Shown: positions 1 through 55,689 of the stretch, piece after piece | How positions within the stretch are numbered: the first letter of the stretch is position 1 | Layout: each line of letters opens with the position of its first letter | From: a virus | Taxonomy: Duplodnaviria > Caudoviricetes | Strand: one strand, 5' to 3' | DNA: 64,000 nt | Virus record (IMG/VR): IMGVR_UViG_3300002054_000008 | Coordinates: 1 to 64,000 of that record | The notes under the pieces: generated by a model | What the model was told of the DNA's origin: nothing | The model's input: the letters and a program-made list of their open reading frames with translations, nothing else | Database searches by the model: none | Position numbers and translations under genes: made by a program

Positions 1-48
1 CAGACTTTCAATCTGGAGAAACGGGTTCGATGCCCGTATGCAGTACCA
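1..48 (+). tRNA. tRNA-Glu(TTC), 5'-truncated by window edge
   Basis: Anticodon arm CAGA-CTTTCAA-TCTG, T-arm ACGGG-TTCGATG-CCCGT, encoded CCA ending at 48. Confidence 0.85.
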
Positions 49-50
49 AG

Positions 51-102
51 TGTTTACATATATGTAAACAAAACAGATAAAATGTTTACATATATGTAAA
101 CA
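51..102. repeat. Two copies of the perfect 20-bp palindrome TGTTTACATATATGTAAACA (51-70, 83-102)
   Basis: Read directly; copies are 32 bp apart start to start. Confidence 0.95.
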
Positions 103-114
103 CAAAATAAACAA

Positions 115-188
115 GCGGCTATGCTAACTGGTTTAGTCCTCTGCCTTCCAAGCAGAATGTATGGGTTCGAGTCCCGTTAGCCGCTCCA
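115..188 (+). tRNA. tRNA-Gly(TCC)
   Basis: Acceptor GCGGCTA/TAGCCGC, loop CTTCCAA, GGTTCGAGTCC, U73 and CCA; weak D-stem. Confidence 0.85.
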
Positions 189-194
189 AGATAT

Positions 195-282
195 GTATTG
201 TTAAAGGTAATCGGATTTACCAAGGGGATTGTAAATCCCCTCCTTTAACTAGGGCGAGGTTCGAGTCCTCAACAATGCACCA
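195..282 (+). tRNA. tRNA-Tyr(GTA)
   Basis: GGGGA-TTGTAAA-TCCCC anticodon arm, long variable arm, T-loop, ACCA end; atypical D-arm. Confidence 0.8.
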
Positions 283-286
283 GATT

Positions 287-361
287 GGCTCATTCGTCTA
301 GGGGTTAGGACGCGGCACTGTCGATGCTGAAACGCGGGTTCGAATCCCGCATGAGCCGCCA
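287..361 (+). tRNA. tRNA-Asp(GTC)
   Basis: Canonical cloverleaf, GGCTCAT/ATGAGCC acceptor, loop CTGTCGA, GCCA end. Confidence 0.92.
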
Positions 362-395
362 TTGATTGTAAACAACAGTTATGGTATGAGAATAT

Positions 396-740
396 ATGAA
401 ATTCTACCACTGCACAGACAGAATTTGGGACTGGCCTCACCAGTTACATCTACCTCGTCCTACGAATGATGTTCCTGTCATACCTGTGTTGTTTGCAAAC
501 TCAACGCCTCTACACCTATATGGTAAGAACGCTTACCAATTTGAGCTAGAGGATGCTAAGATTCTGAATATGTCTCATAAGGTCTACGCAATGATGCGAG
601 ACAATACAGACTACAGAGCAGGATGCTATGACACAGCAAGGCGTGGGGGATATGATGCTCTACAAAGGCATCAATCAGAGGGTGACACAACCCTAGCGGT
701 GTTGAATTTTGATAAAATTGTAAATTGGCGCTTGACTTAA
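396..740 (+). CDS. Small protein with ADP-ribosyltransferase-like (ART-PolyVal-type) motifs
   Basis: N-terminal FYHCT (xYHGT-like), central YG, C-terminal GYDAL...LAVLNFDKI pattern. Confidence 0.45.
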   Translation: MKFYHCTDRIWDWPHQLHLPRPTNDVPVIPVLFANSTPLHLYGKNAYQFELEDAKILNMSHKVYAMMRDNTDYRAGCYDTARRGGYDALQRHQSEGDTTLAVLNFDKIVNWRLT

Positions 741-775
741 TGTCCCACTAACACTTATACCCACACTAAGAATAT

Positions 776-858
776 GCAGACGTAATCGAGTCGGTCTACG
801 AAGCCGTTAATCGTAATTGGAATTGAAAATACAGGTTCGAGTCCTGTCGTCTGCGCCA
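776..858 (+). tRNA. Atypical tRNA-Arg(ACG)-like RNA lacking a D-arm, with a 23-nt variable region
   Basis: Acceptor GCAGACG/CGTCTGC, 8-nt linker, CGGT-CTACGAA-GCCG, T-arm ACAGG-TTCGAGT-CCTGT, GCCA. Confidence 0.8.
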
Positions 859-875
859 GAGAAAAGAGAAGAAAA

Positions 876-2084
876 ATGACTGAACGTAATTATAGATATT
901 CACAAGGCGTTAAAATGTGGGACAAGTATGTGCCATTCGCTGAAAACACAATAGAGCAGCTACATAAGGTAGCACAGATGCCTTTCATTCATAGCCACGT
1001 AGCAGCAATGCCTGATGCCCACCTTGGTATCGGAGCCACTGTTGGTTCTGTGATTGCTACAAAAGGTGCTGTAATCCCTGCGGCTGTGGGTGTTGACCTT
1101 GGCTGCGGAATGATGGCCTTGAGAACCACGTTACGTGCTGACCAACTGCCTGACAATTTAAGAGAGTTACGCTTACGTTTGCAACGCGCAATCCCACTTG
1201 GCTTCCAGTCAGTGCAAGGGCGCTACGCTAAAGGTCGTTGGAAGGTAGCACCACAGTCAACTGTGACACGCTTCCGTCCTCTGCAAGACCGTTTAGACTT
1301 GCTTATTCAGAAGCATCCAATCCTTGAGCGCAACCATGCTCATAATCAGATGGGAACTTTGGGTGGTGGCAATCACTTCATCGAAATCTGTCTGGACGAA
1401 GACGATATGGTGTGGGTAATGCTTCACTCTGGTTCTCGCGGGATTGGTAACATGATTGGCCGCTACTTCATTGAGAAAGCCAAAGAGGATATGCGTCGGC
1501 ACTTCATCAATCTACCAGACAAGGACTTGTCCTATCTGGTTGAGGGAACAGAGAACTTTAACGACTACGTTGAAGCTGTTGAGTGGGCGCAAGAGTATGC
1601 TGCCGAGAACCGAAATGCTATGATGGATATTGTCCTACGCACTATGCGTGAGAAGCTACCTGCTTTTCAGATTAGCAAAGAGGCTGTTAACTGTCACCAT
1701 AACTATATCTCACGCGAGAACCACTTCGGGGCTAACGTAATTGTTACCCGTAAAGGTGCTATTCGTGCGAGGGAAGGTGAGTTAGGTATTATCCCTAGCT
1801 CAATGGCAACAGGGTCAGCTATCGTAAGAGGATTAGGTAATGCTGATAGTTTCTGTTCATGCTCGCATGGCTCTGGTCGTGTTATGTCTCGAACAGAAGC
1901 CAAGAAGATGATTACCTTAGAAGACCACAAGGCTGCTGTTGCGGGAGTCGAGTGCAGAACAGACAAGGACGTGATTGATGAATCACCTGCGGCCTACAAA
2001 GACTTCGACGCTGTGATGAAATCGCAGGAAGACTTAGTGGTAGTGGAACATCGCATCAAGCAGGTTCTAAATATCAAAGGATAA
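876..2084 (+). CDS. rtcB: RtcB family RNA 2',3'-cyclic phosphate/5'-OH ligase
   Basis: MPDAHLG, VGVDLGCG, GTLGGGNHFIE, LHSGSRG, NCHHNY, RKGA, SHGSGR, DESPAAYK motifs. Confidence 0.95.
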   Translation: MTERNYRYSQGVKMWDKYVPFAENTIEQLHKVAQMPFIHSHVAAMPDAHLGIGATVGSVIATKGAVIPAAVGVDLGCGMMALRTTLRADQLPDNLRELRLRLQRAIPLGFQSVQGRYAKGRWKVAPQSTVTRFRPLQDRLDLLIQKHPILERNHAHNQMGTLGGGNHFIEICLDEDDMVWVMLHSGSRGIGNMIGRYFIEKAKEDMRRHFINLPDKDLSYLVEGTENFNDYVEAVEWAQEYAAENRNAMMDIVLRTMREKLPAFQISKEAVNCHHNYISRENHFGANVIVTRKGAIRAREGELGIIPSSMATGSAIVRGLGNADSFCSCSHGSGRVMSRTEAKKMITLEDHKAAVAGVECRTDKDVIDESPAAYKDFDAVMKSQEDLVVVEHRIKQVLNIKG

Positions 2085-2090
2085 TGTCCT

Positions 2091-2127
2091 ATACATAGAG
2101 CATTAAACGGCTTAATGCTCTATGTAT
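2091..2127. terminator. Perfect 16-bp hairpin between rtcB and tRNA-Trp (terminator or processing site)
   Basis: ATACATAGAGCATTAA-acggc-TTAATGCTCTATGTAT; no clear U-tract. Confidence 0.55.
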
Positions 2128-2135
2128 GATACAAT

Positions 2136-2209
2136 GCAGGTCTAGTTCAATGGTAGAACGAGGGTCTCCAAAACCCTAGACGTGGGTTCGATTCCTACGG
2201 CCTGTGCCA
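2136..2209 (+). tRNA. tRNA-Trp(CCA)
   Basis: Canonical cloverleaf, AGGGT-CTCCAAA-ACCCT, GCCA end. Confidence 0.93.
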
Positions 2210-2229
2210 GCTAACAACGGAGAATAAAA

Positions 2230-2523
2230 ATGCAAACATATCAAGACATAGAATACACTGTGGTTGACGATTGGAATTACAAATACGTCCACAGCTTAAA
2301 GCGTAATAGAATTGAGGCCATTGCTTCCTACTGCTACAACAGACAGCACATGCTCCGTAACGAGCATCCAGAGCTTAATGGTTACAACAGCCTCAAGCAA
2401 GACAGACTCATTCCAGAGAGCAAGTTCCGCACACTAACAGGTCTGCGACAAGACTTCTGGAAGTACGCTAAACGTGACAATGGAGCCAAGACAATCGAAG
2501 TTGTCTTGACTTGGCAAGCATGA
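2230..2523 (+). CDS. Hypothetical protein
   Basis: ORF with GGAG RBS. Confidence 0.65.
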   Translation: MQTYQDIEYTVVDDWNYKYVHSLKRNRIEAIASYCYNRQHMLRNEHPELNGYNSLKQDRLIPESKFRTLTGLRQDFWKYAKRDNGAKTIEVVLTWQA

Positions 2524-55606: not shown

Positions 55607-55689
55607 GCGGGTCTAGTCGTGGATGCCTTCTAAGCAGCTAAGCGTAATCGGAACTGAAAATGGGGGTTCGAGTCCCTTGGCCCGTGCCA
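55607..55689 (+). tRNA. Atypical tRNA-Arg(TCT)-like RNA lacking a D-arm, with a 23-nt variable region
   Basis: GCGGGTC/GGCCCGT acceptor, 8-nt linker, GATGC-CTTCTAA-GCAGC, GGGGG-TTCGAGT-CCCTT, GCCA; same architecture as 776-858. Confidence 0.78.

What the first reader, a model, noticed from the sequence alone, without database searches (positions are those of the whole stretch)
776..858. Arg tRNA-like gene with the D-loop apparently moved to the 3' side of the anticodon arm (copy 1, ACG)
Seen: both this gene and 55607-55689 are exactly 83 nt, with a normal acceptor stem, anticodon arm, T-arm, G73 and CCA. Only an 8-nt linker (TAATCGAG / TAGTCGTG) sits where the D-arm belongs, and a near-identical 23-nt insert (TAATCGTAATTGGAATTGAAAAT / TAAGCGTAATCGGAACTGAAAAT) follows the anticodon arm, while the stems diverge freely. 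The differences look compensatory: linker TAAT pairs with ATTG versus TAGT with ACTG, and CGA pairs with TCG versus CGT with GCG. That leaves an 8-nt bulge TAATYGGA. Established: tRNA-Arg D-loops carry G18-G19 (T-loop contact) and A20 (the major bacterial ArgRS identity element), and the bulge reproduces GGA. Inference: a topologically rearranged tRNA fold that rebuilds the elbow from the other strand. It could be a functional Arg tRNA resistant to host tRNA-targeting defence, or an ArgRS/nuclease decoy. It lies 17 nt upstream of rtcB. I cannot check whether this class has been described.
Basis: partly seen in the sequence, partly recalled or inferred. Interest (0 to 1): 0.9.

Follow-up and report, generated by a model that had tools for sequence, protein, structure and literature searches.

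The report
Rewired non-cloverleaf phage arginine tRNA
This phage carries two arginine tRNA genes whose D-arm is not a hairpin but is rebuilt from two strands that lie on either side of the anticodon arm, a conserved non-cloverleaf design shared by many phages and missed by gene finders.

Summary
Window 776-858 (anticodon ACG) and 55607-55689 (UCU) are 83-nt genes with normal acceptor, anticodon and T arms, G73 and CCA. They have an 8-nt linker where the D-arm belongs and a 23-nt insert after the anticodon arm. ARAGORN misses both. Rfam's tRNA model passes copy 1 only by misaligning it.

I found well over 100 distinct relatives in viral contigs and about 300 phage records. The linker pairs with both flanks of an 8-nt bulge, and these pairs co-vary strongly. 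The bulge reads like the D-loop of ordinary phage tRNA-Arg. Its second G changes together with T-loop C56 in the only two variants found.

Of 134 distinct parsed members, 132 carry arginine anticodons. In this phage the two genes are the only tRNA-Arg candidates beside 17 ordinary tRNAs, and they match its commonest Arg codons.

Best reading: working tRNA-Arg isoacceptors with a rewired D-domain (confidence 0.75). Expression, charging and any anti-defence role are untested. RtcB adjacency is not a family trait (2 of 136 loci).

The scan reported this family before on other DNA (at least 8 windows). Nine literature searches found no description.

The parts
776..858 (+). Copy 1: rewired tRNA-Arg gene, anticodon ACG at 798-800, G73 at 855, CCA at 856-858
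   Evidence: R1 89.3 bits
776..782 (+). Copy 1 acceptor stem 5' strand; pairs with 848-854
   Evidence: family acceptor helix 99.1% paired, all 7 pairs co-vary
783..790 (+). Copy 1 8-nt linker TAATCGAG. 783-786 pair with 822-825 (helix 1), 787-789 pair with 811-813 (helix 2), and G790 faces U808.
791..807 (+). Copy 1 anticodon arm: stem 791-795/803-807 (4 of 5 pairs), loop CUACGAA at 796-802
814..821 (+). Copy 1 D-loop-like bulge TAATTGGA (G18, G19 and A20 equivalents at 819-821)
   Evidence: elbow co-variation
826..830 (+). Copy 1 AAAAT connector, 5 nt like a class I variable loop, leading into the T stem
   Evidence: It was fixed by my search patterns, so its conservation is not shown.
831..847 (+). 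Copy 1 T arm, loop TTCGAGT
55607..55689 (+). Copy 2: rewired tRNA-Arg gene, anticodon TCT at 55629-55631. Linker 55614-55621, helix 2 partner 55642-55644, bulge TAATCGGA at 55645-55652, helix 1 partner 55653-55656, T arm 55662-55678, G73 at 55686, CCA at 55687-55689.
   Evidence: R1 82.3 bits
876..2084 (+). rtcB (RNA 3'-phosphate/5'-OH ligase) 17 nt downstream of copy 1. It is a neighbour in this phage, not part of the family design.
   Evidence: linkage seen in 2 of 136 loci

Best explanation
Both loci are genes for working arginine tRNAs, tRNA-Arg(ACG) and tRNA-Arg(UCU), that do not fold as a cloverleaf. The acceptor, anticodon and T arms are standard. The D-arm hairpin is absent. Instead, one 7-8-nt strand after position 7 pairs with two segments that lie 3' of the anticodon arm. 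Its first four bases (U8 A9 N N) pair with the four bases just after an 8-nt bulge (helix 1). Its next three bases (C G N) pair with the three bases just before the bulge (helix 2). The result is a long, nearly continuous arm that ends in the anticodon loop and joins a three-way junction. The bulge (UAAYUGGA) has the sequence of a tRNA-Arg D-loop. I infer that it supplies G18 and G19 to the T loop to form the elbow, and A20 to arginyl-tRNA synthetase. The host enzymes would then process, charge and use the RNA, letting the phage read CGU/CGC/CGA (after A34 to inosine editing) and AGA/AGG. Shown here: the pairs, their co-variation, the D-loop likeness, the co-variation of the elbow pair, the Arg-only anticodons, and the fit to this phage's tRNA set and codon usage. 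Inferred: the three-dimensional shape, processing, charging and use on the ribosome.
For: 1. Family size. One 22-base pattern finds 81 viral contig stretches. A looser pattern finds more than 118 stretches, some of them ordinary tRNAs. BLAST finds 313 and 298 phage records.
2. Helix 1. In 62 distinct sequences, pair 10:48 is GC 33, AU 26, CG 1, GU 1, UA 1, with none unpaired. Pair 11:47 is CG 39, UA 9, AU 8, UG 2, with 4 unpaired.
3. Independent contrasts. In 31 disjoint nearest-neighbour pairs there were 26 changes at these two pairs. In 20 of them both sides changed and pairing was kept.
4. Helix 2. In 54 variants with a 7-nt linker, 147 of 162 cells pair, against a shuffle mean of 94.2 (sd 5.1), and 0 of 2000 shuffles reach the observed value. 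Types seen include CGG/CCG, CUC/GAG, CCC/GGG, CGC/GCG, CGU/ACG and CAC/GUG.
5. Bulge. With the bulge left free in the search, all 28 distinct hits had an 8-nt bulge, 26 of 28 read TAANNGGA, and all 28 had Arg anticodons.
6. D-loop likeness. Ordinary tRNA-Arg genes on the same contigs have D-loops AATGGATA, AACTGGATA, AATTGGATA and the like; 96 of 116 contain GGA.
7. Elbow pair. The only member with C at the second G has G at T-loop position 56 (one sequence on 2 contigs). The only true G-to-A member has U56. Single changes were not found.
8. Anticodons. 132 of 134 distinct parsed members carry Arg anticodons (TCT 84, ACG 29, TCG 9, CCT 8, CCG 1, GCG 1). C35 is invariant in 62 of 62.
9. This genome. 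ARAGORN finds 17 tRNAs for 16 amino acids and none for Arg. Arg codons in 77 long ORFs are CGT 354, AGA 360, CGC 139, AGG 138, CGA 109 and CGG 35. Both copies encode CCA, as do the ARAGORN calls of 15 of the 17 ordinary tRNAs; the other two calls (His, Val) do not end in CCA.
10. Published background. A20, C35, position 36 and A/G73 define Arg identity (PMC9976931, passages read). E. coli HisRS, EF-Tu and the ribosome accept a D-arm-less tRNA (PMC11551756, abstract read).
Against: 1. Energy-based folding does not find helices 1 and 2. The four minimum-free-energy folds differ from the model, with z-scores of -1.64, 0.08, -0.81 and -0.61. RNAalifold on the 62 sequences predicts only the acceptor, anticodon and T stems.
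2. The third pair of helix 2 (14:36) is unpaired in 30 of 62 main-family sequences, always with A14.
3. The stacked arm, counted by hand, is about one layer longer than the D-stem plus tertiary layers of a normal tRNA. The bulge leaves the helix four pairs below the junction. How it reaches the T loop is not modelled.
4. The elbow co-variation rests on two events only.
5. No RNA data could be obtained.
6. My samples come from pattern scans that fixed many bases, so conservation of those bases is not shown except where a scan left them free.
7. The discriminator is T in 33 of 126 members, outside the A/G73 rule.
8. In 7 of 136 loci an ordinary tRNA-Arg with the same anticodon sits beside the rewired one, so the rewired gene is not always needed simply to supply that anticodon.
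Confidence: 0.75

Rival explanations
1. The rewiring is chiefly a counter-defence device. The RNA would be an arginine tRNA, or a mimic of one, that a tRNA-targeting nuclease can no longer recognise or cut. That nuclease could come from the host, from a competing element or from the phage itself. Alternatively the RNA is a decoy that soaks up such a nuclease or ArgRS. This can be true together with the best explanation.
For: Phage tRNAs that escape anticodon nucleases are documented (titles and abstracts listed: PMC10264068, PMC11464382, PMC11555353). Rewired and ordinary tRNA-Arg with the same anticodon coexist in 7 of 136 loci, and 40 of 136 loci hold some ordinary tRNA-Arg. This hints that the rewired form offers something an ordinary one does not. 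In this phage copy 1 abuts the RNA repair ligase gene rtcB.
Against: The anticodon loops are the plain tRNA-Arg loops CUACGAA and CUUCUAA, the usual site of cleavage, and they are not altered. My searches turned up no defence nuclease known to read the D-arm of tRNA-Arg. RtcB lies within the fetched flanks in only 2 of 136 loci. No partner gene recurs: the commonest neighbour family is in 22 of 153 loci, and the top families are homing endonucleases and replication genes. A pure decoy would not need Arg-only anticodons that match codon usage.
Confidence: 0.25
2. It is a tRNA-like RNA with a job outside translation, for example a regulator, a primer or a processing signal. It would keep tRNA arms only to be handled by RNase P, CCA enzymes or ArgRS.
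For: No expression or charging data exist. The core is non-canonical and energy models do not predict it.
Against: Anticodon loops, C35, the D-loop-like A and the anticodon choice are all kept as in decoding tRNAs. The isoacceptor spectrum (TCT, ACG, TCG, CCT, CCG, GCG) and the match to this phage's Arg codons, with no other tRNA-Arg found, are what a decoder needs and a signal does not. The genes sit on the same strand inside tRNA clusters.
Confidence: 0.1
3. It is a decayed or mis-read ordinary tRNA. Either it is a pseudogene that lost its D-arm, or it is a normal cloverleaf as in Rfam's alignment of copy 1, with the D-arm at 785-802 and the anticodon arm inside the insert. A third form of this rival is a gene whose insert is removed or re-ordered by processing.
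For: Rfam RF00005 passes copy 1 at 35.3 bits with that alignment. The insert's AAUCGUA and AAGCGUA could be read as loops with the Arg anticodons UCG and GCG.
Against: On 62 sequences the Rfam-style D-stem is paired in 41.9% of cells and the alternative anticodon stem in 67.1%. Those alternative loops lack U33. Over 100 distinct sequences keep the same layout with compensated stems, which a pseudogene would not. Removing the 23-nt insert would still leave no D-arm. Moving it in front of the anticodon arm would not create a self-complementary D-stem (direct reading).
Confidence: 0.03

Closest known systems
Ordinary class I bacterial and phage tRNA-Arg (Rfam RF00005; for example the ARAGORN-called tRNA-Arg genes on the same viral contigs)
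   Same: 7-bp acceptor stem, 5-bp anticodon stem with loops CUACGAA and CUUCUAA, T arm with loop TTCGANT, C35, G or A at 73 in most, encoded CCA, a D-loop sequence AAYUGGA, and a place inside phage tRNA clusters.
   Different: There is no D-arm hairpin between positions 10 and 25. The D-loop sequence lies after the anticodon arm as a bulge, and its two flanks pair with a single 5' linker strand. This gives a three-way instead of a four-way junction. ARAGORN overlaps only 14 of 144 instances and labels 7 of them Arg.
[quoted passage not shown]
   Same: No D-arm hairpin, and a short connector between the acceptor and anticodon stems. That pairs between the connector and the variable region lengthen the anticodon arm in those tRNAs is recalled, not checked here.
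   Different: The mitochondrial forms lose the D-loop and are described as flexible. The phage family keeps a full D-loop sequence, a canonical T loop and, by co-variation, the 19:56 elbow pair. It would have to work with bacterial cytoplasmic enzymes, and it is specific to arginine.
Engineered D-arm-less 'mini HisT' accepted by E. coli translation (PMC11551756, abstract read)
   Same: A tRNA without a D-arm hairpin that is charged and used by bacterial HisRS, EF-Tu and the ribosome. This shows such folds can work in bacteria.
   Different: It is man-made, a histidine tRNA, and has no relocated D-loop. That abstract states that all known bacterial tRNAs are cloverleaves, so a natural phage family would be an exception to that statement.
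Phage tRNAs that escape anticodon nucleases through loop changes (PMC10264068, PMC11464382, PMC11555353; listings and abstracts seen)
   Same: Phage-encoded tRNAs that differ from the host's in a way that could matter for immunity.
   Different: Those changes are point changes in the anticodon loop or stem. Here the loop is unchanged and the core topology differs. No link to immunity has been tested.
Permuted or split tRNA genes (Cyanidioschyzon merolae, PMC3728597, abstract seen) and allo-tRNAs with 8/4 or 9/3 acceptor branches (PMC5389517, abstract seen)
   Same: Natural departures from the standard tRNA gene layout.
   Different: Permuted genes are processed back to a normal cloverleaf, and here no re-ordering gives one. 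Allo-tRNAs change stem lengths but keep a D-arm hairpin.

Membership tests
tRNA (Rfam RF00005 / cloverleaf) | 7-bp acceptor stem, 5-bp T stem with 7-nt T loop, and 5-bp anticodon stem with 7-nt loop and U33 | tested here: met
   Family-wide pairing is acceptor 99.1%, T stem 99.0%, anticodon stem 95.5%. Each window copy has one mismatch in its anticodon stem.
tRNA (Rfam RF00005 / cloverleaf) | D-arm hairpin (stem 10-13/22-25 closing the D-loop) between acceptor and anticodon arms | tested here: not met
   Only 8 nt lie there. The Rfam-style D-stem is paired in 41.9% of cells on 62 sequences.
tRNA (Rfam RF00005 / cloverleaf) | Score at or above Rfam's gathering score of 29 bits; call by a tRNA finder | tested here: inconclusive
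   Copy 1 scores 35.3 bits through a wrong alignment and copy 2 scores 21.8 bits. ARAGORN calls neither. tRNAscan-SE was not available.
tRNA-Arg identity (bacterial ArgRS) | C35 with U36 or G36 | tested here: met
   Anticodons ACG and UCU. C35 is invariant in 62 of 62. Arg anticodons occur in 132 of 134 distinct members.
tRNA-Arg identity (bacterial ArgRS) | A20 in the D-loop variable pocket (main determinant; PMC9976931) | tested here: inconclusive
   An A follows GG in the bulge of both copies and in 28 of 28 hits of the scan that left the bulge free. Whether it sits where ArgRS reads A20 cannot be told from sequence.
tRNA-Arg identity (bacterial ArgRS) | Discriminator A73 or G73 | tested here: met
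   G73 in both window copies. Family-wide the counts are G 63, A 30, T 33 of 126.
tRNA-Arg identity (bacterial ArgRS) | Aminoacylation with arginine | not testable with these tools
   Needs an in vitro charging assay or acid-gel or tRNA sequencing.
Rewired phage tRNA-Arg family (model R1 built here) | Linker strand paired to both flanks of an 8-nt D-loop-like bulge 3' of the anticodon arm | tested here: met
   R1 scores 89.3 and 82.3 bits, and the next best hit in the genome scores 26.7. Both copies were in the seed alignment, so the scores are partly by construction. The pairs themselves are read directly.
Rewired phage tRNA-Arg family (model R1 built here) | Tertiary 19:56-like pair between the bulge and the T loop | tested here: inconclusive
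   Both copies have G and C. Co-variation is seen in two other members only: C:G in L206/L217 and A:U in L363.
Mitochondrial-type D-arm-less tRNA | D-arm replaced by a short connector, with loss of the D-loop/T-loop elbow contacts | tested here: not met
   The connector is present, but a D-loop sequence and a canonical T loop are kept.

The most novel reading that the evidence does not exclude
A whole lineage of phage arginine tRNAs has abandoned the cloverleaf. It works in bacterial translation with a three-way-junction core in which the D-loop is presented from the 3' side of the anticodon arm. This rewiring would be kept because it makes the phage's own tRNA-Arg invisible to a tRNA-targeting nuclease or other factor that reads the normal D-arm or core, while ArgRS still finds A20. 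If true, it would be the first natural non-cloverleaf tRNA used by a bacterial ribosome, and a new route of immune escape through tRNA topology rather than anticodon-loop point changes.
Probability: 0.25. Interest if true: 0.92.

Novelty: new variant of a known kind. Interest (0 to 1): 0.85.

Why it matters
A 2024 paper opens with the statement that all known bacterial tRNAs are cloverleaves (PMC11551756, abstract). A natural, widespread and apparently functional exception would change that view. It would show how far the L-shape can be rebuilt from a different strand order while keeping the elbow and the ArgRS identity base.

There is also a practical point. Phage genome annotations miss these genes. 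They are unannotated in the two Vibrio phage records and the Escherichia phage BF17 record that I opened, and ARAGORN misses or mislabels most of them. Counts of phage tRNAs, and codon-usage arguments built on them, therefore under-report arginine.

In this phage the two rewired genes are the only candidates to decode arginine within an otherwise broad tRNA set. That makes it a clean case for testing whether the design works.

Tried and rejected
Model B, a small hairpin inside the insert (columns 36-38 with 43-45). It cannot be excluded on the main family, where those bases were fixed by my pattern (no pair with changes on both sides). In the 54 short-linker variants only 89 of 162 cells pair, against 147 of 162 for the linker pairing. 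Rejected.

Model C, the Rfam-style cloverleaf. Rejected.

Energy folding. Four single-sequence folds and RNAalifold did not recover helices 1 and 2. I rely on co-variation instead and count this against the model.

Helix 1 in the short-linker variants. The register is unclear. Three registers give 70, 100 and 148 of 162 paired cells, and the best one involves nearly invariant bases. I make no claim for those variants.

RtcB linkage. tblastn of the window's RtcB against the fetched loci found it in 2 of 136 loci with a rewired gene, one of them the window itself. Not a family trait.

Partner genes. All-against-all clustering of 2514 ORFs from 153 loci gave no common neighbour. The top clusters occur in 22, 19, 17, 12 and 12 loci. 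They are HNH, NUMOD3 and GIY-YIG homing endonucleases, a DnaB-like helicase and another HNH.

Expression. No RNA holder was listed among the 8 runs found for window 1-2400.

A tRNA across the record ends. None was found.

Cellular genomes. The main pattern hits only 10 stretches in 185,579 species' genomes. Eight are MAG contigs, 7 of which carry 3 to 16 ARAGORN-called tRNAs in the stretch held (L223 has 4). Two are Brucella/Ochrobactrum isolates. PHROG searches of 5 ORFs beside the Brucella copy gave one weak hit, so a prophage context is not shown.

ORF 396-740. No Pfam hit, even at E up to 10, and no PHROG hit.

Elbow scans of the short variants. The G19 with U56 single change was not scanned for.

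Literature. Searches, and passages of PMC7609411, PMC13056530 and PMC6409571, gave no description of this fold. Subscription journals and supplementary files were not searchable.

Full report
**What is there.**
- Each has a 7-bp acceptor stem and an 8-nt linker (TAATCGAG / TAGTCGTG).
- Each has a 17-nt anticodon arm with loop CUACGAA (anticodon ACG) or CUUCUAA (UCU).
- Each has a 23-nt insert (TAATCGTAATTGGAATTGAAAAT / TAAGCGTAATCGGAACTGAAAAT), a T arm with loop TTCGAGT, G73 and CCA.
- The copies agree at 57 of 83 positions. Identity is concentrated in the insert (20 of 23), the linker (6 of 8) and the loops, while the stems differ.
- rtcB follows copy 1 after 17 nt (Pfam RtcB, E 2.1e-122).

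**How the standard tools see it.** ARAGORN finds 9 tRNAs in the window and neither of these two. Rfam's tRNA model reaches 35.3 bits on copy 1 only by treating the anticodon loop as part of a D-arm. It gives copy 2 a score of 21.8 bits, below the gathering score of 29. No other Rfam family matches.

**It is a family.**
- BLAST of the two copies against 50,697 phage records finds 313 and 298 records. They are mostly one heavily sampled group of about 114-kb Vibrio phages, plus Escherichia and Salmonella jumbo phages and a few others.
- In Vibrio phage D419 the match lies unannotated between annotated tRNA genes.
- A 22-base pattern taken from the insert and T arm finds 81 stretches in IMG/VR viral contigs. 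Together with the phage records and the window, these give 62 distinct 80-nt sequences without a single indel.
- A looser pattern returned 118 or more stretches. Many are shorter variants of 73-79 nt without the CCA, with a 7-nt linker; the rest are ordinary tRNAs.
- In one representative genome for each of 185,579 bacterial and archaeal species, the main pattern occurs only 10 times. Eight hits are MAG contigs, 7 of them carrying 3 to 16 called tRNAs in the stretch held, and two are Brucella/Ochrobactrum isolates. The family is therefore essentially phage-borne.
- ARAGORN overlaps only 14 of 144 instances and labels 7 of them tRNA-Arg. In L220 it calls a member 'tRNA-Thr(ggt)'.

**The fold.** I tested three structures on the 62-sequence alignment A1.

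- Pair 10:48 is GC 33, AU 26, CG 1, GU 1, UA 1, with none unpaired.
- Pair 11:47 is CG 39, UA 9, AU 8, UG 2, with 4 unpaired.
- Eight fully compensated helix-1 versions occur (TAGC/GCTG, TAAC/GTTG, TAAT/ATTG, TAGT/ACTG, TAGA/TCTG, TAAA/TTTG, TATC/GATG, TACA/TGTG), and five of the eight occur with both TCT and ACG anticodons.
- To discount shared ancestry I took 31 disjoint nearest-neighbour pairs. Of 26 changes at these two pairs, 20 changed both sides and stayed paired, 2 changed one side to a wobble, and 4 involved a mismatch.

Helix 2 (12-14 with 36-38) has two pairs fixed by my pattern in the main family. Its third pair is paired in 32 of 62. G14 always faces C (11 of 11), U14 faces A or G (5 of 5), C14 faces G (1 of 1), but A14 faces U, C or A (15, 21, 9). 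The short-linker variants settle the matter. In 54 of them the three linker bases and the three bases before the bulge pair in 147 of 162 cells, against a shuffle mean of 94.2 (sd 5.1), with 0 of 2000 shuffles as high. The types seen are CGG/CCG, CUC/GAG, CCC/GGG, CGC/GCG, CGU/ACG and CAC/GUG.

The two rival folds fail. A hairpin inside the insert pairs in only 89 of 162 cells in these variants. Rfam's cloverleaf has a D-stem paired in 41.9% of cells.

Against the model, energy-based folding does not predict helices 1 and 2, neither for four single sequences (z-scores -1.64 to 0.08) nor by RNAalifold on A1.

**The bulge is a D-loop.**
- A scan that fixed helix 1 and left the bulge free in sequence and length (6-10 nt) gave 28 distinct sequences. 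All have 8 nt, 26 read TAANNGGA, and all have Arg anticodons.
- Ordinary tRNA-Arg genes called by ARAGORN on the same contigs have D-loops AATGGATA, AACTGGATA, AATTGGATA and so on. GGA occurs in 96 of 116. The bulge therefore equals positions 14-20 of a tRNA-Arg D-loop.
- One of the two exceptions, TAATTGCA, also has the T loop TTGGAAT. The base equivalent to G19 became C, and C56 became G.
- Targeted scans found this double change on 2 contigs (one sequence) and neither single change. Among 134 distinct parsed members the table is G/C 133, C/G 1, others 0.
- Two compensated events are few. They are nevertheless what a 19:56 elbow pair predicts.

**Arginine, and this phage.**
- Anticodons among the 134 distinct members are TCT 84, ACG 29, TCG 9, CCT 8, CCG 1, GCG 1, GAT 1 and TGA 1. 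C35 is invariant in A1.
- The review PMC9976931 (passages read) gives A20, C35, position 36 and A/G73 as the arginine identity set, with A20 the main determinant for E. coli ArgRS. The family keeps an A after GG (28 of 28 where it was free). Both window copies have G73.
- The window's genome (80,567 bases; completeness estimated at 99%) has 17 ARAGORN tRNAs for 16 amino acids and none for Arg, Ser, Tyr or Glu.
- Model R1 finds exactly two strong hits in it, at 89.3 and 82.3 bits, and the next best is 26.7.
- In 77 long ORFs the Arg codons are AGA 360, CGT 354, CGC 139, AGG 138, CGA 109 and CGG 35. UCU and ACG (as ICG; this decoding rule is recalled) would cover 1100 of 1135.
- Both copies encode CCA, as do the ARAGORN calls of 15 of the 17 ordinary tRNAs here.

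**What it most likely is.** These are working tRNA-Arg isoacceptors with a rewired D-domain (confidence 0.75). That bacterial translation tolerates a D-arm-less tRNA is shown by the engineered mini HisT (PMC11551756, abstract).

**What is not shown.** Expression is untested, since no RNA run was listed. Charging and three-dimensional shape are also untested. By my hand count the stacked arm has 8 layers between the anticodon stem and the junction, against about 7 in a normal tRNA. The bulge leaves the helix four pairs below the junction, so its route to the T loop is an open problem.

**Why rewired?** This is unknown.
- RtcB lies within the fetched flanks in 2 of 136 loci.
- No neighbour gene recurs beyond homing endonucleases and replication genes.
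- Rewired genes sit beside ordinary tRNA-Arg genes in 40 of 136 loci, and with the same anticodon in 7. This leaves room for a special advantage such as escape from a tRNA-targeting factor.
- I rate that bold reading at 0.25.

**Novelty.** Nine full-text searches and three papers searched for passages gave no description. A 2024 abstract states that all known bacterial tRNAs are cloverleaves. The scan itself has reported the same family on at least 8 other windows, and its agents likewise found no paper. My tests were run independently. They agree with those reports and add the elbow co-variation, the D-loop comparison, and the tRNA-set and codon argument for this phage.

Noticed in passing
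window 396-740 (+): A 114-aa ORF lies between tRNA-Asp and copy 1. It has no Pfam hit even at E up to 10 and no PHROG hit. Another first-reader note calls it ART-like, and I could not support that.
   Followed up: partly
window 1-45 (+): Rfam tRNA match of 29.5 bits, cut at its 5' end by the start of the record. Joining the record's ends does not restore a tRNA, so the record seems to begin inside a tRNA gene.
   Followed up: partly
whole genome G000: ARAGORN finds no tRNA for Ser, Tyr or Glu either. Model R1 finds no further rewired gene. Whether other unusual tRNAs hide here was not examined.
   Followed up: no
L126 (IMG/VR contig), the parsed element listed: One member with the same layout has the anticodon loop CTGATAT (GAU, isoleucine) and A73, so the design is not strictly limited to arginine.
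   Followed up: no
L016, L025, L031, L057, L061, L108, L218: Single viral contigs carry two different versions of the rewired gene, for example an 8-nt-linker form and a 7-nt-linker form, or two anticodons.
   Followed up: no
L220 1223-1305: ARAGORN labels a rewired tRNA-Arg (R1 91.4 bits) as 'tRNA-Thr (ggt)'. This is an example of how annotation can be misled.
   Followed up: partly
L221 6519-6598 and L228 7152-7231: Family members occur in contigs of two cultured Brucella/Ochrobactrum isolates, outside any tRNA cluster. PHROG searches of 5 neighbouring ORFs in L221 gave one weak hit, so a prophage context is not shown.
   Followed up: partly
L222 1867-1947: ARAGORN calls a 'tRNA-Stop' with anticodon tta (a possible ochre suppressor) in a tRNA-rich MAG contig that also holds a rewired tRNA-Arg.
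   Followed up: no
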